Virus record (IMG/VR): IMGVR_UViG_3300020180_000011
Source: an uncultured virus (IMG/VR IMGVR_UViG_3300020180_000011)
Taxonomy: Duplodnaviria > Heunggongvirae > Uroviricota > Caudoviricetes
Length of the DNA: 59,909 nucleotides
Direction: 5' to 3' (one strand)
Under the pieces are notes generated by a model, which did no database searches, was not told the origin of the DNA, and was given only the letters and a program-made list of their open reading frames with translations. Below are positions 2,146 through 25,026 of this stretch, piece after piece. A program made the position numbers and the translations under genes. How positions within the stretch are numbered: the stretch's first letter is position 1; each line of letters opens with the position of its first letter.

Positions 2146-2408
2146 TGTCAGGCGCATTCAAACAAGATAGCGGTACAGTTACTCCTCCTTATCAAGCTAC
2201 GTTTACTCAGGCAGATATTACTGTAGCAAATATCTATCCTCTCATTCATGGATTAGATGGGTATCCTTCAGGCATTACTGTCTGGGATAGCTTTGGTCAA
2301 GTAATGGGGCCAGACAATATTGAGAATGTGTCCATCAATACCGCTAGTGTTTACTTAACGTCATTTGTACCTATTGTAGGAACATGGACAGTCTCTGCTA
2401 CTCTGTAA
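2145..2408 (+). CDS. Small virion/tail-fibre-associated protein
   Basis: HGL...ITVWD...G.W.V module also present at the C-terminus of the next gene. Confidence 0.6.
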   Translation: MSGAFKQDSGTVTPPYQATFTQADITVANIYPLIHGLDGYPSGITVWDSFGQVMGPDNIENVSINTASVYLTSFVPIVGTWTVSATL

Positions 2409-2424
2409 TAAATAGGTAATTAAA

Positions 2425-3462
2425 ATGCGTGAAGGTTTAAAAGAGTTTTTAGGTTTAGGTGTAAGGTATTTTAGAAATGCTACAGCTAGTACTTTTGTAG
2501 GTCTAAGAGGGCCTCAAGCAGGCGACCCCGCTACTAGCTTTAATATCACATTGCCTCAAGCACTGCCTGCAGGAAGCCCTGAGGCTATGTTTATAAGTAG
2601 CTCTGGTGTAATCACTACCGCTGCCGCAGGTGGTGGTGGAAGCGTCACCAGTGTAGCTTTGAGTGTGCCTAGCATCTTATCAGTATCAGGAAGTCCTATT
2701 ACTTCTACAGGTACGCTAGCAGTGTCGTTAGCTACTCAAACAGCTAACACGGTATTTGCTGGGGCTGTATCTGACGGTGCAGCTACTCCTGCATTTAGGT
2801 CTTTGGTATATGCTGATATCTCTGCACTAGCTGGAGTAACGTCTACTACATTTGCAGTAGGTAACGATAGCAGATTTCACACTCGTAACGCAGACACAGG
2901 CACAACTAATGTGACCTTTGCTGTAGATAGTGGTGGAACTGGCCTACTCCTAAAAAATAATGCTGGAGCACTACAATTACGTAACCTAGCTGATAATGCT
3001 TTTGCCGATATTGAAGTGAATAACCTCTTAGTTAGAGGCACTACTACTACAATCAACTCAGAAACTCTTACAGTTGATGACAACATAATTGTCTTAAATA
3101 ACAATGTATCTTCAGGAACTCCTACAGAAAATGGAGGAATTGAAGTTCGTAGAGGAGCATCTACTTCAGCTACGGTATTGTGGAACGAATCTACCGACAT
3201 CTGGGAAGCTGGATTAGTTGGCGCTACTGCACCTGTTGCTCGTACTCACAGACGTACTTTAGTGAATGGTGATTTAACTGCAGGAACAGTAGCAATCACT
3301 CATGGGTTAGGTCAACAATATCTAGATGTTACAGTAGTGGATAACACGGGTAAGAAAGTAATCCCTGACGAGATTACTTACACCAATAGCACATCTTATT
3401 CGTTAGATGTCACATCTTTCGGTGCTATTACAGGAACTTGGAACATTTTAACTGTAGGCTAA
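2425..3462 (+). CDS. Tail fibre-like protein
   Basis: GSVTSVALS..GSPITSTGTL repeat and GTTTTINS..LTVDDNIIVLN..GGIEVRRG..WNES.D.W motifs typical of phage fibres. Confidence 0.75.
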   Translation: MREGLKEFLGLGVRYFRNATASTFVGLRGPQAGDPATSFNITLPQALPAGSPEAMFISSSGVITTAAAGGGGSVTSVALSVPSILSVSGSPITSTGTLAVSLATQTANTVFAGAVSDGAATPAFRSLVYADISALAGVTSTTFAVGNDSRFHTRNADTGTTNVTFAVDSGGTGLLLKNNAGALQLRNLADNAFADIEVNNLLVRGTTTTINSETLTVDDNIIVLNNNVSSGTPTENGGIEVRRGASTSATVLWNESTDIWEAGLVGATAPVARTHRRTLVNGDLTAGTVAITHGLGQQYLDVTVVDNTGKKVIPDEITYTNSTSYSLDVTSFGAITGTWNILTVG

Positions 3463-3466
3463 TTTA

Positions 3467-3892
3467 ATGAGACAAGGTACACCTAGTTTTACGGTAGTAT
3501 CCGCAGCAAGAGCAGCATTAGATGCTCAACAGGCTCTTGTAAATATCACTGCGGCACAAGGACTAAACGACCAAGGACTGCAGCGATACTCTATAGTCTC
3601 GGAAGAAGTTACCACAACTACGTATACTTTCGTAGCTGCAGATAACGGTAAACAAAAAATATTTACTGCTGCAACTGCAATCACTGCAACACTCCCTAGC
3701 GGATTACCTGCGGGGTTTAATTGTTTGGTCGCACAGTCTGCCGCTGGTCAAGTTACGGTGGCTGCTGGCGGTAGTGTCACTGTGGTCAATCGTCAATCTC
3801 AGTTCAAAACAGCAGGACAACATGCTGTTATTTCTATTCTTCCTAGACTTACCACTAACGATTATCGAATACTCGGGGATACTGCAGCATAA
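3467..3892 (+). CDS. Tail fibre-associated protein
   Basis: TYTFVAADNGK...ITATLP..LPAGF...Q..AGQVT fibre module. Confidence 0.65.
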   Translation: MRQGTPSFTVVSAARAALDAQQALVNITAAQGLNDQGLQRYSIVSEEVTTTTYTFVAADNGKQKIFTAATAITATLPSGLPAGFNCLVAQSAAGQVTVAAGGSVTVVNRQSQFKTAGQHAVISILPRLTTNDYRILGDTAA

Positions 3893-5035: not shown

Positions 5036-5933
5036 GTTTTTGTAATAAAGTAGCTACTCTATACACTCCCTCTTTGTGCGCAATAGCTACGGGCACAATA
5101 GTTTTTTCTGTCTGAATACTAGATAGCATTAAGTGGGGGTTAAAGTTAGTTAAAAAATCATAACTGTCTTTGGATATATACTTGTCACCTACTTGTATTA
5201 CTTCGGCATTGTCAGGCATCGCTACTACTTCCAGTGATGCGGTGTTGTATATGCTGATAGTTTTGTTAAATACATAATCATCTGTCCTATTTTCTGGGAT
5301 ACTATACATTAGGCAGTTAACGACTACATCAAACTCTTTGGTTATGCTACTAACAAAACTAATAGTGTCCTCAGATGTTCGTACCTCTGTCTTATCTTTT
5401 ACAAACTTAGCTACAAAGGACATGTAGCTTTTATTGCATAGGATATCCATACTACCTATCAAAGTATCCGAGGTGTATTGGATTTGGTCACACTCAATAT
5501 TTGAAGAGAAAGTTTTACCGCTAGACGATACTTCTGTATAAGGAAATCGCCTAAAGTTTAACGCAGTAATAAAGTTATGTAGCAAGGAGTAGTCAGGATT
5601 TACAGAACGCACAGTTGTTTGCGGAAACATAAAACTACCAATGCTCCTATCCACACTAAAGCCATCAGAAGACTCCGGTAGAAAAAAGCCTATCTCTCGT
5701 ATAGCGCCGAGAGTAGAGTCTTTGAGACTTTTAATTAGGTCAACATCTAGCTTGTATGTTTTTCTAGCGGTATGTCCTATGTGTAACTCATCCCAACGAT
5801 AGTAAATCTCTCTGTCTGTGTCTGTAACTACACTAAGCTCGGTAGCGTCTGATGTGTTGGTAATGTAGTACTCAGCAGTATTGATATTGGTAAAATTCTT
5901 AACTACTCTGTAAAGCTTTTCTGCATCGTACAT
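5028..5933 (-). CDS. Hypothetical protein
   Basis: 301-aa ORF coupled to the upstream gene. Confidence 0.7.
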   Translation of the reverse strand: MYDAEKLYRVVKNFTNINTAEYYITNTSDATELSVVTDTDREIYYRWDELHIGHTARKTYKLDVDLIKSLKDSTLGAIREIGFFLPESSDGFSVDRSIGSFMFPQTTVRSVNPDYSLLHNFITALNFRRFPYTEVSSSGKTFSSNIECDQIQYTSDTLIGSMDILCNKSYMSFVAKFVKDKTEVRTSEDTISFVSSITKEFDVVVNCLMYSIPENRTDDYVFNKTISIYNTASLEVVAMPDNAEVIQVGDKYISKDSYDFLTNFNPHLMLSSIQTEKTIVPVAIAHKEGVYRVATLLQKPS

Positions 5934-5941
5934 ACTATTAC

Positions 5942-6673
5942 CTAAAAAGGAATGTTCTCGTAAAGCTGAGCGTACTTAAGACTAGATAACTTGTTACCCA
6001 AAATGTTGCTACCACTAAAAGATGTAGTAGATATTCCCCAGTAACTATCCTCCTCGCTGTTTCCAAATAACGACACACCATACACATCTGTAAACAATAC
6101 ACCAATATAAGGCAGCTTGACTACATCAAAACTAGCATCACCTTGTAAGAACTGCAATCCTTTATCCATTACAGTATCTCGTACAGATAACCAGTTAGGT
6201 CTAATATACTCCTCCATACCTTCCCAGTGCCTCAGAGACGAGAACGGACTTAGCTGGGCGATAGTAGAACGAGTAGAGTAGTCTTGCGTCTTCATGGCGC
6301 TGTAGTAGTTGGCTAGGGACATATACTCCACACCGTCTGAAGTAACTAGAGGCTCTTTAAATTTGGTAATAAGAATATCTTGAATAGAGAACTTATTGCC
6401 ATATCCTAGATAGGTGGACAAATACATCAAATAATTATAATCAATCTCTATCTGACCCTTGTTAACAAAGTAAATGTCTTCGTCAGTTAGATAATAATCA
6501 AAGTCTTTAAGTCTATCCGTAATCACATAATCTTTGTCATTCCAATTTAGATAGATGTCCGACCATTTAGCCCTAACCTCTAGTAAACTGTCGTCAGAAG
6601 ATATATCCGATAGCTTGTCTAGCGTCTTGTAATGAGCTTTTTCTAATGTAATGCTTTTGCTGATTTTAGCCAT
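5942..6673 (-). CDS. NADAR-domain protein with N-terminal extension
   Basis: YYSAMKT, RPNW..VRD.VM, D.YWG...G.N.LG..L NADAR motifs. Confidence 0.7.
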   Translation of the reverse strand: MAKISKSITLEKAHYKTLDKLSDISSDDSLLEVRAKWSDIYLNWNDKDYVITDRLKDFDYYLTDEDIYFVNKGQIEIDYNYLMYLSTYLGYGNKFSIQDILITKFKEPLVTSDGVEYMSLANYYSAMKTQDYSTRSTIAQLSPFSSLRHWEGMEEYIRPNWLSVRDTVMDKGLQFLQGDASFDVVKLPYIGVLFTDVYGVSLFGNSEEDSYWGISTTSFSGSNILGNKLSSLKYAQLYENIPF

Positions 6674-6686
6674 AATTAGTAGTGGA

Positions 6687-6714
6687 GATAGGTAGAGTAA
6701 TGTCTACCTATCTA
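6687..6714. terminator. Hairpin downstream of rlpA
   Basis: agataggtaga-gtaatg-tctacctatct, 11-bp stem. Confidence 0.5.
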
Positions 6715-6730
6715 ATAAGGTGTACAGTTC

Positions 6731-7081
6731 TTATCGCAAACGAGTTAAAGTCACTCTAACTACTCCTGCGCTACGGCCACGCAAGACATCCATAGCTGCC
6801 CTAGACATATCAACAATGCGTCCCCCAACAAAAGGGCCTCTATCATTAATACGAACCACCACAGACCTTCCTGCACTAGTAGTTACCCTAACTCTTGTTC
6901 CGCAAGGTAACGTTCTATGTGCTGCAGTCAGTGCATGCATATTAAAAGTCTCGCCACAAGCAGTTCGTCTTCCATGATAAGGATTTCCGTACCAAGAAGC
7001 AAGTCCAGTTTGTGCCGATACAGGCAAAGCAAAGGCTAACGTAGATAGTAAAGTAACCGTAACCAATCGTAGATTAATCAT
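6731..7081 (-). CDS. rlpA: RlpA-family lytic transglycosylase (DPBB) with signal peptide
   Basis: [36 protein letters not shown]...[18 protein letters not shown]. Confidence 0.92.
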
Positions 7082-7439
7082 AGAAAAACCTCGGTATGTG
7101 GGAAACTCAGTCTCTTTAGAGCTGAGAGGGAAACGGCACGGCGAATTTATTCGCCTACCCCCTTTCGGGGTGGAGGGGTATGGTTGCCCCTCCGTGGAGA
7201 TATGGTTGTCTCCGCCTCTTTCGAGGTGATGTTGGCTTTGACCTGTTATAAGAGCTTGTTAGACCTGCAACACTGTCTCAGTGACCTTAAGACTGTTTAA
7301 TTGCAGATGACAGAGCAGGGAACTAGCTTGATTCCAGGGTGTCGTGACTCAAATAACGTTTACTCTTTCAAGTGGTCTGGTCAGATTAGCTTGTTTGATT
7401 ACTCTTCCAAGCTCAGTCCTTTAGGGCTGGGTATCTGAC
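7082..7439 (-). mobile_element. Non-autonomous IS200/IS605 (IscB/HEARO-type) element with no ORF
   Basis: Begins GTCAGATACCCAGCCCTAAAGGACTGAGCTTG; near-identical subterminal hairpins at 7412-7431 and 7106-7126; right end abuts ATGA. Confidence 0.8.
7208..7439 (-). ncRNA. HEARO/omega RNA scaffold (stand-alone)
   Basis: HEARO-like blocks in order: GTCA..ACCC..CTAAAG..GCTT, TGACCAGAC, ACGTT, ACACCCTGGAAT..CTAGTTCC..GCTCTG, TTAAACAG..CAGTG, ATAAC..GTC.AAG..AACATCACC..GAAAG. Confidence 0.75.
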
Positions 7440-7516
7440 GTGTCCTATAGGTAACAACTTTAGCTAAACCAAAGTATACCGCAAAATGTCTTGCGTTAGA
7501 CTTAGATAAGCCGTAA

Positions 7517-7876
7517 ATGGTAACAAAAATGGAACAAGATAAGATATTAGAGGCTATAGAAAAACAAATATCAGCCATATCTAAGCAGATATCTGATTTA
7601 GCCTTGACCGAAAAAACTAACAACAACAAACAAAATAGAACTATACGAAGTCTCCGTAGCGCACAGCAAGCAATCAAATCCCTTGTAAACGTAGTAATTG
7701 CTATAGGCTCAGTCTTTGGTTTGCTTTATTATTTTAATACTACTACGCCTTTGAGTGAGCAGCAAAAAGACTTAGTTAATACAGTCATTACTGCACTTGT
7801 AGGAGGCATTGGAGTAACCAGCGCAACCAAGATAGTAGGAGGCAAATCTAGTGACGAGGACGACGAGGAAGATTAA
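7517..7876 (+). CDS. Membrane protein with coiled-coil N-terminus (possible holin-like)
   Basis: Two hydrophobic helices, acidic tail, divergent from rlpA. Confidence 0.5.
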   Translation: MVTKMEQDKILEAIEKQISAISKQISDLALTEKTNNNKQNRTIRSLRSAQQAIKSLVNVVIAIGSVFGLLYYFNTTTPLSEQQKDLVNTVITALVGGIGVTSATKIVGGKSSDEDDEED

Positions 7877-8600
7877 TTTTATTGCGGAAAATACTGTGGT
7901 CATCAGCTATATGATGCTGTGCTGCACCTATTAACCAAGAAGTAATATTGATGCTGTTAACCGTTTCTTCCCAACTTCCAGTTACTCCATCTTTCCAAAT
8001 AGTTGATACACAATTAATGTACTCTAATACAACTGCTCTAGCTTGAGTATTGGTGTATAGATTTATAGTATTAAATCCCTGTAAATCTAGTACAAAGTTG
8101 TTACGTAAAGTTAGCCTGTAATCTGATACCATTTTACCTGCAACTTTAGTAAAGCTGGATTTCTCTTTAGATACCCATAAATCAATAAATATATGAGTAC
8201 ATCTAAGAGTTTTGCTCTCTGCTATTGATTTTTCTAGCACCTTTTCAAATTGTTGCTCCCATGCAAATTGGGAAGAAGACTTATATTTGACTTCTCCTTT
8301 AGCGGTCTTTAGCTCTGCTATGTTTAATAGCAATACAAAATACAGAGATTTGGATTTAGGGGAATCAAACACCCATACTCCCCTCAAAGGAAGTTTTAGA
8401 GATTCATCACTTACCTTTTTTCTAAGGGAAGCTGACCAGTCCACCATTCCAGGATAATCAAATCTAAGAAGAGATACCATGCCAAACTCTTGCTTCTCGC
8501 TATGAAGAACTAGATTTGATTTAGCTGAAGGATTGCCTTCTAAAAGGCTAGTTATCCAGGTGTATAAATCAGTAAAGAACTTCTTTAGTCCGGTCAGCAT
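7848..8600 (-). CDS. Hypothetical protein
   Basis: 250-aa ORF. Confidence 0.65.
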   Translation of the reverse strand: MLTGLKKFFTDLYTWITSLLEGNPSAKSNLVLHSEKQEFGMVSLLRFDYPGMVDWSASLRKKVSDESLKLPLRGVWVFDSPKSKSLYFVLLLNIAELKTAKGEVKYKSSSQFAWEQQFEKVLEKSIAESKTLRCTHIFIDLWVSKEKSSFTKVAGKMVSDYRLTLRNNFVLDLQGFNTINLYTNTQARAVVLEYINCVSTIWKDGVTGSWEETVNSINITSWLIGAAQHHIADDHSIFRNKINLPRRPRH

Positions 8601-8639
8601 GGTATCTCGTCTTAGGTAGGGGCTGACATAGATTATAAC

Positions 8640-9203
8640 TTAGATGCTATGCAGTCTATTACCTCCCTGATAATGGCCGTCATACAAAGTGTCAGGAGCT
8701 TTGTCTACCTTGATAAAGTTAGCTTGTATAGCTCCTTCTAGCAAATAGAACTTAATGGGATTGGGAGTAGGGTTACTTACACCAAAAGTCAGTCGTCCCT
8801 CGTATCCTGGCTCTACTTGAGTAGAATGAGTCTTACCTCCCTGTCGAATCTCACATGTGCTCTTACCCGTAAAATTCAAGATAGTCACATCTGCTGGCAT
8901 CTTGACTAATTCTACGGTCTTCAGTAGTAAGTACTCGCCTGAGCCAATCCAGAGGTAAGTACGGCCATCTCCGTCTTGTTTGCATTGGCTCTCAATAGAA
9001 GCAGTCTCTTCGGGAGTTTGAAGTTCCCCATCTAAAGAACTTCGGAAAGTATATCCTAAAGGCTCTAGCCCATATGACCAGACTTTAGTTGTTTTGCAAG
9101 TTACGGCGTTTGTTTCAGTAGCTACTTTGATATTAATGAACGGAGTAATCAATGCAGAATCAATCGCTAGCTGTGTAATTTCTACGTCAGTTAATAGGCG
9201 CAT
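8640..9203 (-). CDS. dcd: dCTP deaminase / trimeric dUTPase-family protein
   Basis: SYGL...GY, T.E.VKMP, GKST, EPGYEGRLT, Y.GHYQ motifs. Confidence 0.8.
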   Translation of the reverse strand: MRLLTDVEITQLAIDSALITPFINIKVATETNAVTCKTTKVWSYGLEPLGYTFRSSLDGELQTPEETASIESQCKQDGDGRTYLWIGSGEYLLLKTVELVKMPADVTILNFTGKSTCEIRQGGKTHSTQVEPGYEGRLTFGVSNPTPNPIKFYLLEGAIQANFIKVDKAPDTLYDGHYQGGNRLHSI

Positions 9204-9642
9204 ACAGTTTAATCTCTACTTGTAAGTTTTCTAGACCACTGGTAATAATCTGCTTGACTTTTGACCAATCTAACGTACCCAGTCCACATCCTAGGGCAGG
9301 AATAGCAACAGACTCTAGCTTGTGGTAAATAATGGCTTTGGCTAGCTCTTTAATTCCTTTTTCTACATACTCATATTTACTAGGGTCTCTCCATGTATCT
9401 TTAGTTGCCAGCGCTATTAAAGTAACTGCACCAAGATAATCGTAGTACACAATTACTGGACGTGTAGGTACATTTAATAGACCTACCGCACATTGAGCTT
9501 TATAGTATTCGTAAAACTTAGGGTACTCCCTTTTGAATACCTTAGCTAGTCCGGCTCCCATTACTCCTTCACAATTTACTGGGCATACTAAAGCATCGCA
9601 TCCGCTTCTAAAAATATCTCCAGTTGTCTCAATGATTGGCAT
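9187..9642 (-). CDS. Macrodomain ADP-ribosylhydrolase (DarG/Poa1p-like)
   Basis: GDIF..ALVCPVNCEGVMGAGLA..FK; TK..WR.PS; AIPALGCGLG.LDW. Confidence 0.88.
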   Translation of the reverse strand: MPIIETTGDIFRSGCDALVCPVNCEGVMGAGLAKVFKREYPKFYEYYKAQCAVGLLNVPTRPVIVYYDYLGAVTLIALATKDTWRDPSKYEYVEKGIKELAKAIIYHKLESVAIPALGCGLGTLDWSKVKQIITSGLENLQVEIKLYAPIN

Positions 9643-11548: not shown

Positions 11549-11875
11549 TCATTCTAAAACCCTCAATACTTTTACGTGGTTACAAACTTTGAGCTCTTCT
11601 GGGTTGCATTCAGGTGTATCTGAAGCATACGCAGCCAGAAAATTCTCAGGGGTAGAAAAACATAGATGCACATAATAGTGTTCTGCAGGGCCAGGACTAT
11701 TGTTAAGCGCCAGCAAAGCAGGACACAAAGTAGCTACTTTTCCGATAACAGTAATGTACTGCATAGCCGCTTGTTGGGTCTTAAATGCCCGGTTTGTATG
11801 AAGATTGCCCTCTGCATCTTGCAGAATGTAGACATCTCTAATTTGCTCGGAATCAATCAGAATCGCCGCTGTCAT
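11549..11875 (-). CDS. Hypothetical protein
   Basis: ORF overlapping the end of the ligase gene. Confidence 0.6.
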   Translation of the reverse strand: MTAAILIDSEQIRDVYILQDAEGNLHTNRAFKTQQAAMQYITVIGKVATLCPALLALNNSPGPAEHYYVHLCFSTPENFLAAYASDTPECNPEELKVCNHVKVLRVLE

Positions 11876-14081
11876 AGTATTGCTCCAGGTATATTGATAC
11901 TTCCTTGATTCTCTCTTGCTCAGATAAGTTTAACCAAGCACTCTCATTGGTCGTAATTGCGATATGCTTAATAACATCCCTGTATCTAGACATATCTGAA
12001 TCTAGCTGGCTAATAAACTTCTCAGTATTGCTGAACATTAAAGCAACTTTGGAGTCACTCATCCTGCCAAAATACTTGCTAGCTAGATACCAGATAGTTT
12101 TTAACTTGAATAAAGGTGTGCCATCGTTAGCGCAAACCATCCATCCTTCAAAATTAGATACAGTGTATGTGCCCCATAGTATAGTATCTGGGCGTAAAAG
12201 CGTAGCTGGCGAGTACCAGCTAGAGAACAAGCCTGCTAAAAACATTGTACCGAGCCCAAGTAGACATTTTCCGTTATATCCAATAAGATACAAACCTTGC
12301 TGTTTTTCTGTGTAGCTAACAATATGAGGGTCTAGTAAATCCACACATTCAAAATGTAGCGTACTCGCGTAAGGCTTGTCTTGTAGCCAATCTTTAACTG
12401 CCTTGTACCTACCTTCTTTGTACAGCCATTTCTTAGCCATGTCCACATGCTCTCCTTCAAAGGAGCCACTACAGGTAACTAGTAACTCATCACAATAAGG
12501 ATGCAAGCAAATATTGACCAGGAAGCCATTGATTTTTTCTACCGCCCAGTATTCTTGCTCCACATCATATTGGTTATGCTCTTTGATTTCCATGTAGTTA
12601 AATACCCGGTCAAACACAGTATTACATGGATTGCCGTCTAAACCAAGTACAATACCTCTAGCCTCTTTTAACACCGGAAATTCCATAAAGTTACCGCTCT
12701 TAGCAAACGCTTTTTGAGTATATTTGTGCAGAGTAAGATGTCCTGTACTGTCCCTAACGCTGGACACTAACTTTTTAGGTAACTCCGCTAGCCTAGATTT
12801 GAAAGTATAAGGCTTAGATACAGAATAATCAAAGTCATCTTTCTGTTCATGTGTCTCACCTGTACGTAGGTCGTTCATACACATGTATCCTCCAAACCCT
12901 ATTCCTTTCTCAAGAACTGTAACCTGGTCAGCATTAGGGCTAGTAGGTAAGATATGTCCTCGGTAAAGATGAAAAGATGTAGAGTCGGCCTGTGGTACAC
13001 CGCTTTTTATCTGCGCCCTTGCCATACCTTCAACCCACGCATAAAATCTACCGTCTGTATCAGTCATGGAGTGATACTTAGACTCACCTCTAACTCTCTC
13101 TAGGGGCGGTTGGTTAAACAAATCAAAGTGCTCAATATCCGCATGACAAAAGATACTAACATCCGTACCAAAAGATGTAGTTTCAATCCTTACATAATGG
13201 TCAGGCAACGACTTAAAGAACTTAATTACTTTGTCAGTGTAAGCTTTGCCTTTAAGCAAGATTTGATGTGCTGTAATTTTACTGCTGTCACTATTTACCT
13301 CTTGGCCTAATAAGATACGAAGTACATTGTATTCGTGATTACCTAGAATTACATAGTGGCCCTCGCTATGTAACTGCATAACCATATCTAGACATTCAAT
13401 AGATTTAAATCCTCGGTCTACATAATCCCCTAAAAACAATGCAGTAGCCTTGAACTTAATAAAGCTCTCATACATGTCTAGAAACGTATCGTAACAGCCG
13501 TGAATATCTCCTACAACTACAATATTCTCACCATTAGGAAGTACGTAAGGAAAATCTAACTCCAGCACAACCGGAGCATTCACGACTGTATAGTTAGGAC
13601 AGACTTTAGATGTTTTTTCTAGCTGGCTATGAAATTTATCAACTACCTTGTCTGGTACGGGGGAAGTCCTCCATTCTGACCTATTGTTTAAGTGCAGTTG
13701 CTCTAAAGAAATATCAAAGATAACCAATAATACAGGCACATCGTACTTGTTAGCAATCTCTACCCACCAGTTACGTTTACCCTCTGTGGTATTAGTGGAA
13801 TCTACTACAGTAGTCAGCCCTTTGCTTAGTCGGGCATTTACTACTTGAGACATGATATCAAAGACAAAGTTATCATCCGTAGCATACGGCACCATAGCGC
13901 ATACTATCTCTTCGTTAACAGAATCTACAGGTGCTCTAGACTCACCAAAGAAGATTTTTCTATAGAAGTCAGAGCTTACTACTACTCCTGAAGGCAACCC
14001 TTTAACTGCAGAAGATTTACCAGAAGCAGGAGCACCTGAAAGAATAGTTAAACCGCCGTAAGGAATACTGATTTTTTGCAT
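11853..14081 (-). CDS. Trifunctional polynucleotide kinase / metallophosphoesterase / Rnl1-type RNA ligase
   Basis: P-loop GAPASGKS; GDIHG, GDYVDRG, GNHE; ligase motifs EKINGF, FE, EGWMV, FKLK. Confidence 0.9.
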   Translation of the reverse strand: MQKISIPYGGLTILSGAPASGKSSAVKGLPSGVVVSSDFYRKIFFGESRAPVDSVNEEIVCAMVPYATDDNFVFDIMSQVVNARLSKGLTTVVDSTNTTEGKRNWWVEIANKYDVPVLLVIFDISLEQLHLNNRSEWRTSPVPDKVVDKFHSQLEKTSKVCPNYTVVNAPVVLELDFPYVLPNGENIVVVGDIHGCYDTFLDMYESFIKFKATALFLGDYVDRGFKSIECLDMVMQLHSEGHYVILGNHEYNVLRILLGQEVNSDSSKITAHQILLKGKAYTDKVIKFFKSLPDHYVRIETTSFGTDVSIFCHADIEHFDLFNQPPLERVRGESKYHSMTDTDGRFYAWVEGMARAQIKSGVPQADSTSFHLYRGHILPTSPNADQVTVLEKGIGFGGYMCMNDLRTGETHEQKDDFDYSVSKPYTFKSRLAELPKKLVSSVRDSTGHLTLHKYTQKAFAKSGNFMEFPVLKEARGIVLGLDGNPCNTVFDRVFNYMEIKEHNQYDVEQEYWAVEKINGFLVNICLHPYCDELLVTCSGSFEGEHVDMAKKWLYKEGRYKAVKDWLQDKPYASTLHFECVDLLDPHIVSYTEKQQGLYLIGYNGKCLLGLGTMFLAGLFSSWYSPATLLRPDTILWGTYTVSNFEGWMVCANDGTPLFKLKTIWYLASKYFGRMSDSKVALMFSNTEKFISQLDSDMSRYRDVIKHIAITTNESAWLNLSEQERIKEVSIYLEQYYDSGDSD

Positions 14082-24670: not shown

Positions 24671-24698
24671 AGAATACCATACTTTTAGTCCTTGTCAA
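24671..24698 (-). promoter_or_regulatory. Sigma70-type promoter
   Basis: TTGACA-N16-TATTCT with extended TG. Confidence 0.6.
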
Positions 24699-25026
24699 GC
24701 GTTTTTAGAAAAGATTTTAAATTTAATATTACTCCTACTGTAGAGCGAGTTACAGCCTTGTTAGAGTATCGAATGAGATTATACCCATGTCGGTGTAGTA
24801 CCGTAGTCCTAACGCTGTCGTAGTCCTTCTGGGGAGAACTATTGTGATAAGACCCATCTATCTCGATAACTAAGTTATGACTAGGTAGAAAAAAGTCTGC
24901 TACATATCCCGTAGGAGATAACTTATATTGTCTCTTGTAGATAATATTAGCAGCAGTCAATGCTCTAGCAAAGACATTCTCAGTATTAGTAACTCTCACG
25001 GAAGGATTAGCTAAGTGTAGTGACAT
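24685..25026 (-). CDS. DUF559 / Vsr-like endonuclease
   Basis: KRQY...YVADF...LVIEIDG.YH...D..RT..L...GY..IRYSN. Confidence 0.88.
   Translation of the reverse strand: MSLHLANPSVRVTNTENVFARALTAANIIYKRQYKLSPTGYVADFFLPSHNLVIEIDGSYHNSSPQKDYDSVRTTVLHRHGYNLIRYSNKAVTRSTVGVILNLKSFLKTLDKD

What the first reader, a model, noticed from the sequence alone, without database searches (positions are those of the whole stretch)
7082..7478. Stand-alone IscB-type omega/HEARO RNA element inserted exactly at the rlpA start codon
Seen: a 358-bp element with matched CTAAAG-loop terminal hairpins, a HEARO-like scaffold and no IscB/TnpA ORF. Its right end abuts ATGA, which is the rlpA start. Removing it gives ...TATAGGACAC|ATGA with a native AGGA RBS, and the element supplies a new RBS (GAGGtttttctATG). 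A TATACT box at 7473-7478 would give a ~25-nt 5' leader ending AAGTTGTTACCTATAGGACAC. Known: HEARO elements insert at ATGA/GTGA, and IscB omega-RNA guides lie 5' of the scaffold. Inference: a phage-borne guide RNA that could load IscB in trans to cut element-free rlpA alleles (homing or inter-phage competition) while leaving rlpA expressed.
Basis: partly seen in the sequence, partly recalled or inferred. Interest (0 to 1): 0.72.

Follow-up and report, generated by a model that had tools for sequence, protein, structure and literature searches.

The report
Guide-RNA-only mini-transposon in a cyanophage
A 358-base jumping element that carries only the guide-RNA gene of a Cas9-like nuclease (IscB), and not the nuclease, sits exactly in front of the start codon of a phage cell-wall gene; it is a real, recently mobile member of a known transposon family, and whether its guide RNA is used is untested.

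Summary
Window 7439..7226 (minus strand) is a full-length HEARO/IscB omega-RNA scaffold (128.7 bits, threshold 83). The element is exactly 7082-7439 (358 bp). One contig from another public run, about 2% diverged, joins 7081 directly to 7440 with no duplicated letters. That is the predicted empty site ...GGACAC|ATGA at the rlpA start.

The element is not special to this phage. Complete copies 94-100% identical lie at unrelated sites in metagenome contigs, each before ATGA. More diverged copies with the same build occur in Microseira wollei (10 nuclease-less copies) and in 63 of 201 related genomes. At least five distinct nuclease-less copies sit in other viral contigs.

The family begins 5'-GTCA and inserts at N|ATGA or N|GTGA without duplication, often exactly at gene start codons. 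It ends in a purine-rich RBS-like stretch. These are the published traits of cyanobacterial ISC (IscB) transposons and their PATE-like derivatives.

No IscB or TnpA is encoded in the window. An IscB element with the same ends exists in metagenomes.

Trans-loading by host IscB and homing between phages fits the geometry but is untested. This is a new member of a known kind. This scan has noted a solo IscB guide in another phage before.

The parts
7082..7439 (-). Whole non-autonomous ISC (IscB-family, IS200/IS605 superfamily) element, 358 bp. It starts 5'-GTCAG and has no protein gene.
   Evidence: An empty-site contig in run X2 joins 7081 to 7440 with no duplication. Copies 94-100% identical with other flanks are L164, L165, L169 and L167.
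7226..7439 (-). Omega-RNA scaffold (HEARO), full length. Model position 1 coincides with the element's first base.
   Evidence: cmscan 128.7 bits against a gathering score of 83, model 1-211 of 211.
7440..7459 (-). Flanking rlpA 5' leader that would form the guide of the omega RNA (about 16-20 nt ending ...CCTATAGGACAC). This is inferred.
   Evidence: IscB guides lie 5' of the scaffold, outside the transposon end (Meers 2023 passages). The 16-mer has only this exact site in the window.
7473..7478 (-). TATACT, a possible -10 box of the rlpA promoter that would also drive the omega RNA. It is unverified.
   Evidence: Present in the sequence, but the consensus scan did not call it a promoter.
7411..7432 (.). 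Subterminal hairpin with a CTAAAG loop at the omega-RNA end. It is a likely TnpA recognition hairpin (transposon RE) and the first stem-loop of the scaffold.
   Evidence: DNA fold. Compensatory stem changes between the window and L164/L165/L169.
7157..7225 (-). Hairpin module that stands where iscB lies in full-length elements. It holds CCTCGAAAGAGG, two hairpins with CAACCATA loops, and ACCCCGAAAGGGG.
   Evidence: RNA fold -60.1 kcal/mol, z -5.3. The module follows 10 of 10 nuclease-less HEARO copies found with it in Microseira wollei. 9 of 19 predicted pairs show compensatory changes.
7082..7156 (-). 3' terminal region shared with full-length IscB elements: the GGCGAATAAATTCGCC hairpin, the subterminal CTAAAG hairpin (7106-7126), TTTCCCAC, and GAGG (7089-7092) 7 nt before the junction.
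   Evidence: The same order follows the iscB stop codon in G001 elements L131, L133, L138 and L142 and in L173 (96% identical). Loose ends at 7156 in runs X1, X2 and X4.
7077..7081 (-). Target site / predicted TAM, ATGAT. Its ATG is the rlpA start codon.
   Evidence: All aligned copies are followed by ATGA or GTGA. The N|ATGA target of cyanobacterial ISC elements is published (Kapitonov 2016, PMC4810608, passages). The GstIscB TAM TTCAT is the complement of ATGAA.
6731..7081 (-). rlpA-like gene (116 aa, signal peptide plus DPBB_1 domain) directly downstream of the element.
   Evidence: ORF list, Pfam DPBB_1 7.6e-27, phrog_7930 7.5e-30. Homologues in viral contigs align from residue 1.

Best explanation
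The feature is a protein-less, PATE/MITE-like derivative of a cyanobacterial ISC (IscB) transposon. It keeps three things. The first is the complete omega-RNA gene. The second is a structured spacer in place of iscB. The third is the two terminal hairpin regions that a Y1 transposase (TnpA) recognises.

Most likely a host-encoded TnpA moved it as single-stranded DNA from a host copy into replicating phage DNA. It landed at the family's target N|ATGA, which here is the rlpA start codon. Insertion and loss are both scarless, which explains the filled and empty alleles in related phages.

The element has no outward promoter for its guide. The omega RNA would therefore be made from the rlpA promoter, with the last 16-20 nt of the rlpA leader as its guide. 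rlpA would be translated from the read-through transcript using the element's own GAGG.

If the infected host makes a compatible IscB, that RNA would direct cutting of element-free copies (guide match plus ATGAT). Repair from a filled copy would then restore or spread the element.

Shown here: identity, boundaries, target site, empty allele, family membership, recent mobility, and an IscB element with the same ends elsewhere.

Inferred: TnpA mobilisation, transcription, IscB loading, cutting and homing. I put the identity and transposition part at about 0.9. I put actual use of the RNA by a host IscB at about 0.3-0.4.
For: - Scaffold: full HEARO match at 128.7 bits. IscB-linked copies in Microseira wollei score 91.6-152.3 bits.
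- Empty site: a precise, duplication-free empty site in an X2 contig. The filled junction is also seen in X3 (record 18 spans 7340-7782).
- Copy number: depth over the element is hundreds to thousands, against 6-60 on the flanks. Loose ends sit exactly at 7078/7081 and 7439.
- Near-identical copies: complete copies 94-100% identical at unrelated flanks, each before ATGA.
- Ends: 5'-GTCA terminus, N|ATGA target and no duplication, as published for cyanobacterial ISC elements (PMC4810608 passages).
- 3' end: the 75 nt at the 3' end equal the region after the iscB stop in full-length elements.
- Candidate nuclease: L173 carries a 440-aa RRXRR+HNH IscB between the same 5' hairpin and a 96%-identical 3' end.
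- Host-like genome: Microseira wollei has 63 HEARO matches (39 at or above threshold), 37 RRXRR matches and 49 Y1 transposase matches.
- Docking at start codons: the junction ATG/GTG opens an ORF of 83 aa or more in 7 of 12 M. wollei copies, including SHMT and an acyl carrier protein whose Pfam domains start at residues 9 and 8.
- Literature: PATEs that encode omega RNAs needing a nuclease in trans are mentioned in the Meers 2023 preprint discussion.
Against: - No expression data exist; no RNA run holds the region.
- No IscB or TnpA is in the window. No host genome is held. So no cognate nuclease is tied to this phage's host.
- The only IscB element found with the same ends (L173) has a scaffold only about 81% identical, so compatibility is unknown.
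- The TATACT promoter was not called by the scan. A weak terminator-like hairpin (7495-7480) lies just upstream.
- GAGG is GAGT in 3 of the 5 closest copies, so the RBS reading is not universal.
- Mini-derivatives that lost most of the scaffold also persist (L163, L171). Transposition alone can therefore maintain such elements.
- The empty allele rests on one low-depth contig (depth 5.8) of one run. Contigs, not reads, were laid.
Confidence: 0.8

Rival explanations
1. Inert passenger. The element transposed into the phage, and its omega RNA is never loaded or never matters. Presence and absence among phages reflect only TnpA insertion or excision and drift.
For: No nuclease is in the window. 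Derivatives without most of the scaffold also persist (L163, L171). The closest IscB-linked scaffold is only 81% identical. No RNA evidence exists.
Against: The scaffold is intact and scores as well as IscB-linked copies. Stems keep pairing through compensatory changes. The 358-bp form with the whole scaffold is kept at 94-100% identity across several loci. That fits either very recent spread or selection on the RNA.
Confidence: 0.45
2. Phage-adaptive weapon or drive. The phage keeps the guide-only element because host IscB then destroys or converts co-infecting element-free relatives (non-restorative homing or marker exclusion).
For: The guide and TAM geometry matches the empty allele that exists in nature. 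Nuclease-less HEARO elements recur in viral contigs: 6 of the 14 HEARO-bearing loci found, 5 of them distinct. The filled allele occurs in two diverged backgrounds (the window/X1, and X3 record 18). The empty X2 contig is closer to the window in 7440-7782, differing at 1 listed site against 4. This is a weak hint. Homing into co-infecting phages is discussed as a theoretical case in PMC13565253 (passages).
Against: Nothing here is phage-specific. The same element and the same docking habit occur at cellular genes. The allele pattern rests on a handful of sites in short contigs. It is equally explained by precise excision. IMG/VR contigs may include host or prophage DNA.
Confidence: 0.2
3. Assembly artefact. 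A repeat that is abundant in the metagenome was wrongly joined into the phage contig.
For: The element is a high-copy repeat in the same samples (depth up to thousands). The short contigs break inside it.
Against: X1 record 2 (depth 58, like the phage) runs 38 nt into the element from rlpA with 0 differences. X3 record 18, from another study, bridges 7439/7440 with 100 nt on the element side. The boundaries equal the family's ends and target.
Confidence: 0.03

Closest known systems
ISC transposons of cyanobacteria, such as ISC1-1_MA of Microcystis aeruginosa (Kapitonov, Makarova & Koonin 2016, PMC4810608; passages read)
   Same: 5'-GTCA terminus, insertion at N|ATGA, no target-site duplication, subterminal imperfect hairpins, no own transposase, and ends defined through empty orthologous sites.
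   Different: Those elements encode IscB or IsrB (1.3-1.7 kb). This one has lost the gene and carries a 69-nt hairpin module in its place.
PATE-like protein-less IS200/IS605 derivatives that encode omega RNAs (mentioned in the Meers et al. 2023 preprint, 10.1101/2023.03.14.532601; passages read)
   Same: It has no protein gene and keeps the transposon ends and a guide-RNA gene. It would need both nuclease and transposase in trans.
   Different: The cases discussed there are TnpB-type elements in the Geobacillus chromosome. This is an IscB-type element, in a phage, with a natural filled/empty polymorphism.
[quoted passage not shown] 2023; passages read)
   Same: The omega RNA (HEARO) sits at the transposon end upstream of iscB. 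The guide comes from the flank. The TAM TTCAT (complement ATGAA) equals the TnpA target. The window has ATCAT (complement ATGAT).
   Different: The nuclease is encoded in cis there and its activity was shown. Here there is no nuclease gene and no test.
Full-length HEARO + IscB element in Microcoleus phage My-WqHQDG (OR578707.1; locus L001)
   Same: Phage-borne. The HEARO match is 129.1 bits, 74% identical to the window's scaffold.
   Different: It is followed by a 425-aa RRXRR+HNH IscB. The record annotates that protein as hypothetical and does not annotate the RNA.
Free-standing and intron-borne homing endonucleases of T-even phages (as reviewed in PMC13565253; passages read)
   Same: Only by analogy: a selfish element in a phage whose cutting of element-free relatives would bias inheritance during co-infection.
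   Different: Those encode their own protein nuclease. Here recognition would be by RNA, and the nuclease would be borrowed from the host.

Membership tests
HEARO RNA (Rfam RF02033) = IscB omega-RNA scaffold | Covariance-model score at or above the curated gathering score, over the whole model | tested here: met
   128.7 bits against 83, model 1-211 of 211, E 2.3e-26.
HEARO RNA (Rfam RF02033) = IscB omega-RNA scaffold | Lies directly upstream of an IscB (RRXRR + HNH) ORF | tested here: not met
   After the scaffold there are 144 nt to the element's end. No IscB is in the window by tblastn or Pfam. Nuclease-less copies are common in this family.
HEARO RNA (Rfam RF02033) = IscB omega-RNA scaffold | 5' end of the scaffold coincides with the transposon end, so the guide comes from flanking DNA | tested here: met
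   Model position 1 is 7439, which is the last base of the element as defined by the empty site.
HEARO RNA (Rfam RF02033) = IscB omega-RNA scaffold | The RNA is made and binds IscB | not testable with these tools
   No RNA holder was listed, and no host genome is held.
ISC / IS200-IS605 superfamily, non-autonomous (PATE-like) element | Scarless insertion: no target-site duplication and no terminal inverted repeats | tested here: met
   The joint 7081->7440 shows 'both = 0'. The ends are 5'-GTCAG ... TTTTTCT-3'.
ISC / IS200-IS605 superfamily, non-autonomous (PATE-like) element | Specific 4-nt target, N|ATGA or N|GTGA for this clade | tested here: met
   The window has C|ATGA. ATGA or GTGA follows every aligned copy. 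This is published for cyanobacterial ISC elements.
ISC / IS200-IS605 superfamily, non-autonomous (PATE-like) element | Subterminal imperfect hairpins at both ends on one strand | tested here: inconclusive
   Hairpins at 7106-7126 and 7411-7432 have like loops. Their energies are not better than shuffles. Compensatory changes across copies support them.
ISC / IS200-IS605 superfamily, non-autonomous (PATE-like) element | Several copies at unrelated loci, plus a polymorphic empty site | tested here: met
   L164, L165, L169 and L167 are 94-100% identical with other flanks. The empty allele is in X2.
ISC / IS200-IS605 superfamily, non-autonomous (PATE-like) element | Mobilised by a Y1 (HUH) TnpA supplied in trans | not testable with these tools
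   There is no TnpA in the window. Y1_Tnp is abundant in a genome that holds related copies: 49 matches in G001.
Homing element / gene drive between phages | Element-dependent cutting of the empty allele and biased inheritance | not testable with these tools
   Only the geometry (guide match plus ATGAT) and the natural presence of both alleles are shown.

The most novel reading that the evidence does not exclude
The phage carries a 'guide-only gene drive'. The element encodes no nuclease. It borrows the IscB of whichever cyanobacterium the phage infects. It uses the rlpA leader as its guide to cut element-free sibling phages at the rlpA start during co-infection, and it is copied into them by recombinational repair. 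The conserved CAACCATA double-hairpin module that replaces iscB would then be a functional part of the trans-acting RNA, serving 3'-end formation, stability or IscB recruitment. The recurrence of nuclease-less HEARO elements in viral contigs would reflect this way of life.
Probability: 0.2. Interest if true: 0.8.

Novelty: new member of a known kind. Interest (0 to 1): 0.45.

Why it matters
This is a clean natural example for a question so far addressed mainly in the laboratory: can guide-RNA-only derivatives of IscB/TnpB transposons act through nucleases encoded elsewhere, and can such elements home between viral genomes? Both the filled and the empty allele exist in related wild phages. The guide, the TAM and a candidate IscB family can be read from sequence. 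The idea could therefore be tested directly with a plasmid-interference assay and mixed infections. The finding also documents a conserved 358-bp nuclease-less omega-RNA transposon family with an unexplained double-hairpin module. It further shows that these elements habitually dock at start codons while bringing an RBS-like end. As it stands, though, the element itself is an ordinary non-autonomous ISC derivative.

Tried and rejected
- No whole genome is held for the window.
- Megablast of 6000-8700 against GenBank phages found no match.
- Relatives of the neighbouring 250-aa protein in viral contigs: none.
- rlpA relatives in viral contigs reach only 50-67% identity. No close phage relative could be fetched as sequence.
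- The 21-nt left flank had no exact match in metagenome contigs or viral contigs. The empty site is therefore known only from the laid X2 contig, not as a readable locus.
- No RNA holder was listed among the 18 runs, so nothing can be said on expression.
- The promoter scan found no sigma-70-type site at TATACT. It found only a site overlapping the rlpA ATG and a weak terminator-like hairpin at 7495-7480.
- DNA folds of the two terminal hairpins are not more stable than shuffles.
- The permissive Rfam scan of 7040-7520 gave nothing besides HEARO, so the hairpin module matches no described RNA family.
- A second site resembling the guide (5772-5787, 3 mismatches) is at chance level and is followed by ACCGC, not ATGA.
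- Weinberg et al. 2009 (the original HEARO paper) is not held. What I remember of it on ATGA/GTGA and start codons is recalled only. The paper search 'HEARO' + 'ATGA' returned only irrelevant hits. Altae-Tran et al. 2021 was not seen; I cite it only from recall, via the Meers text.
- The order-level search found no copy above 84% identity in 201 genomes, so the host remains unidentified.
- I considered and dropped the idea that the 7157-7225 module is an unrelated nested repeat. All 10 of its matches in M. wollei directly follow a HEARO match, and none of those 10 contigs has an RRXRR match.

Full report
**What is there**

On the minus strand, window 7439..7226 matches the Rfam HEARO model (RF02033) end to end. 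The score is 128.7 bits against a gathering score of 83 (E 2.3e-26). It is the only Rfam match in the window, and a permissive rescan of 7040-7520 adds nothing. HEARO is the scaffold of the IscB omega RNA (Meers et al. 2023 preprint, passages read).

Read 5'->3' on the minus strand, the locus runs ...GGTATACTTTGGTTTAGCTAAAGTTGTTACCTATAGGACAC | GTCAGATACCC... through the scaffold. Then come 144 nt of stacked hairpins ending ...CCGAGGTTTTTCT | ATGATTAATC.... That ATG opens a 116-aa ORF (6731-7081) with a signal-peptide-like N-terminus and a DPBB_1/RlpA domain.

The window is a phage-like contig. It has a terminase, large Laminin_G_3 proteins, a thymidylate-synthase-like gene, a PNK/RNA-ligase gene, a Macro domain and pentapeptide repeats. 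It has no close relative in GenBank phages, and no host genome is held.

**Boundaries and the empty site**

I laid the contigs of four public runs on 6300-8300. In run X2, one 1,238-nt contig (depth 5.8) covers 6803-7081 with 15 differences and then continues at 7440-8300 with 9 differences. The tool reports 'skips 358' with no letters shared by the two sides.

The element is therefore exactly 7082-7439.

The filled junctions are seen at phage-like depth in X1, which has 0 differences and is probably the source sample, so it is not independent. They are also seen in X3, a different study, where a 443-nt contig spans 7340-7782.

Depth over 7082-7156 and 7244-7439 is in the hundreds to thousands, against 6-60 on the flanks. 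Many contigs break off exactly at 7078/7081 and at 7439. The element is thus a high-copy repeat in these communities, and ATGA is shared by its copies.

These are contigs, not reads. The empty allele rests on one contig.

**It is one member of a family, not a phage invention**

*Near-identical copies in metagenomes.* An exact 31-nt stretch of the 3' end found 12 metagenome loci.
- L164, L165 and L169 are complete copies: scaffold 94-95%, middle 97-100%, 3' end 96-100% identical.
- L167 and L170 are copies cut by contig ends.
- All have unrelated flanks on both sides, and each is followed by ATGA.

*Diverged copies in a cyanobacterial genome.* A 22-nt stretch found Microseira wollei NIES-4236 and a cyanobacterial MAG. 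M. wollei has 63 HEARO matches (39 at or above threshold), 37 RRXRR/IscB matches (16 in open frames of 370 aa or more) and 49 Y1-transposase matches.

Ten of its HEARO copies are directly followed by the same hairpin module as in the window. None of those ten contigs has an RRXRR match. Five of them, aligned in full, share the whole build:
- flank | GTCAG, then the scaffold;
- a small hairpin;
- two hairpins with CAACCATA loops;
- ACCCC...GGGG;
- GGCA...TGCC;
- a terminal hairpin;
- TTTCCAC...GAGGTTTTAG | ATGA or GTGA.

*Spread among relatives.* In 201 genomes of the same order, 63 have a match. Whole nuclease-less copies of 72-78% identity occur in four of them, and no copy exceeds 84%.

**Relation to full-length IscB elements**

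In M. wollei elements that encode IscB, the iscB stop codon is followed by a GGCGAATAAATTCGCC-type hairpin, a terminal hairpin, TTTCCA, a purine-rich stretch and then ATGA/GTGA/GTGG. This equals window 7156->7082.

Metagenome locus L173 holds a 440-aa RRXRR+HNH IscB. It lies between a 5' end that starts GTCAAGATACCCAGCCCTAAA and a 3' end 96% identical to the window's. Its scaffold is only about 81% identical.

The loose-end consensus at 7156 in runs X1 and X2 ends, when read on the minus strand, in the same TAAGATTGA that links the L173 iscB stop to the shared 3' end. I compared this by eye. Full-length elements with these ends therefore probably live in the same samples as the phage.

The window's element is thus a deletion derivative in which a 69-nt hairpin module (7157-7225) stands where iscB was. 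Smaller derivatives that also lost most of the scaffold exist too (L163, L171).

**The hairpin module**

As RNA, 7230->7082 folds at -60.1 kcal/mol (z -5.3; 0 of 200 shuffles fold as well). In an alignment of ten copies, 9 of 19 predicted pairs keep pairing through changes on both sides. The CAACCATA loops are nearly invariant. It matches no Rfam family. I cannot say what it does. Possible roles are 3'-end formation or stabilisation of a trans-acting omega RNA, or a protein-binding site.

**Docking at start codons**

Translating from the junction ATG/GTG gives an ORF of 83 aa or more in 7 of 12 M. wollei copies whose junction I could place. Among them are serine hydroxymethyltransferase (Pfam domain from residue 9), an acyl carrier protein (from residue 8) and a TPR protein. 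I left out four full-length copies whose junction I could not place.

The same holds for 4 of 5 distinct nuclease-less copies in viral contigs, with ORFs of 68-234 aa. A purine-rich GAGG-like stretch sits 6-9 nt before the junction in most copies, but it is GAGT in 3 of the 5 closest relatives.

The rlpA position and the 'new RBS' are therefore family habits. A plausible reason is that the guide of an IscB omega RNA lies outside the element, so it must be transcribed from an outside promoter. A 5' leader offers exactly that.

**Other viral contigs**

A degenerate HEARO-core pattern found 15 viral-contig loci, and 14 carry a full HEARO match. Eight are followed by IscB. Six are nuclease-less, with the family's 3' end 57-195 nt behind the scaffold (L151, L150 = L152, L157, L144, L148; five distinct).

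L151 shares the window's first 13 bases and a 96%-identical 3' end. Microcoleus phage My-WqHQDG carries a full HEARO + IscB element, annotated only as a hypothetical protein.

The pattern search samples only one HEARO clade. IMG/VR contigs can also include host or prophage DNA, so these are counts of what was found, not frequencies.

**Comparison with what is known**

Kapitonov et al. 2016 (PMC4810608, passages read) describe cyanobacterial ISC elements with 5'-GTCA termini and insertion at N|ATGA without duplication. They also describe subterminal hairpins, mobilisation by Y1 transposases in trans, and protein-less PATE relatives.

Meers et al. 2023 (preprint, passages read) place HEARO at the transposon's right end upstream of iscB. 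They show that the IscB TAM (TTCAT, the complement of ATGAA) equals the TnpA target, and that IscB cuts the scarless donor joint to restore the element. They remark that PATEs often encode omega RNAs that would need a nuclease in trans.

A 2026 review (PMC13565253, passages read) lists homing into co-infecting phages or plasmids as a theoretical 'non-restorative' mode. I found no paper reporting a nuclease-less IscB omega-RNA element in a phage, in searches. These cover open-access papers and bioRxiv only.

Earlier notes of this scan report a solo IscB guide in another phage (e1-5762017) and an IscB element docked between an RBS and a start codon that brings its own RBS (e1-2470111). I used these as leads only.

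**Function**

Everything needed for the published cut-and-copy logic is laid out in the sequence:
- a guide-donor flank (7459-7440);
- an intact scaffold;
- the self site protected by GTCAG in place of the TAM;
- an empty allele in nature that carries guide match plus ATGAT.

What is missing is any evidence that the RNA is made, that a compatible IscB is present in the host, or that cutting occurs. No RNA run holds the region.

One hint comes from the flanks. Within 7440-7782, the filled X3 variant differs from the window at four listed sites, while the empty X2 contig differs at one. Presence of the element therefore does not follow flank similarity. That fits homing or precise excision equally well, and it rests on very few sites.

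**Verdict**

The element is a new member of a known kind: a PATE-like, omega-RNA-bearing ISC derivative. Its phage location and natural filled/empty polymorphism make it a good test case. The homing or competition reading is possible but untested.

Noticed in passing
window 7157-7225 (minus strand); also L164, L165, L169, L090, L092, L094, L095: Two adjacent hairpins with nearly invariant CAACCATA loops and co-varying stems stand where iscB lies in full-length elements. They match no Rfam family, and their role is unknown.
   Followed up: partly
L163 and L171 (metagenome contigs): An element of roughly 230 bp keeps only the first 63 nt of the scaffold plus the 3' end. It sits before the same 72-aa ORF in two contigs. 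It is a derivative that has lost the omega RNA.
   Followed up: no
L166, L168 (metagenome contigs): The family's 3' end (93-97% identical) occurs before ATGA with no HEARO scaffold or IscB upstream in the fetched DNA. It may belong to another cargo, such as a TnpB-type partner sharing the end, as Kapitonov 2016 describes for ISC/IS605B pairs.
   Followed up: no
L150 / L152 (viral contigs), junction at oriented position 2487: A nuclease-less HEARO element is followed by ATGAGGGTTCGACTCCC..., which looks like the 3' part of a tRNA (T-arm). ARAGORN calls only a tRNA-Met elsewhere in the locus. This may be an insertion into a tRNA gene.
   Followed up: partly
L001 2983-3192 and 3217-4494 (Microcoleus phage My-WqHQDG, OR578707.1): A GenBank phage carries a full HEARO RNA (129.1 bits) and a 425-aa RRXRR+HNH IscB. 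The record annotates only a 'hypothetical protein' there, with tRNA-like sequences around it.
   Followed up: partly
L143 (195-kb viral contig), 2303-3569: The IscB behind this HEARO copy matches in two pieces that abut at 2803/2805 in different frames, so it is probably frameshifted.
   Followed up: no
window 5942-6673, 8640-9203, 9187-9642, 11853-14081 (all minus strand): Near the element lie a NADAR-like protein, a dCTP-deaminase-like protein, a Macro-domain protein and a 742-aa kinase + phosphoesterase + RNA-ligase fusion (Pnkp-like). This set looks like reversal of ADP-ribosylation plus RNA repair, which could be counter-defence.
   Followed up: no
window 24685-25026 (minus strand): A 113-aa ORF with a DUF559 / REase_MTES_1575 endonuclease-like domain. 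It is the only nuclease-like domain I saw in the scanned ORFs and is unrelated to IscB.
   Followed up: no
window 6414-6625: In run X3 a related phage contig replaces 210 letters of the 243-aa NADAR-like gene region with 195 other letters. This is a local mosaic difference between phage variants.
   Followed up: no
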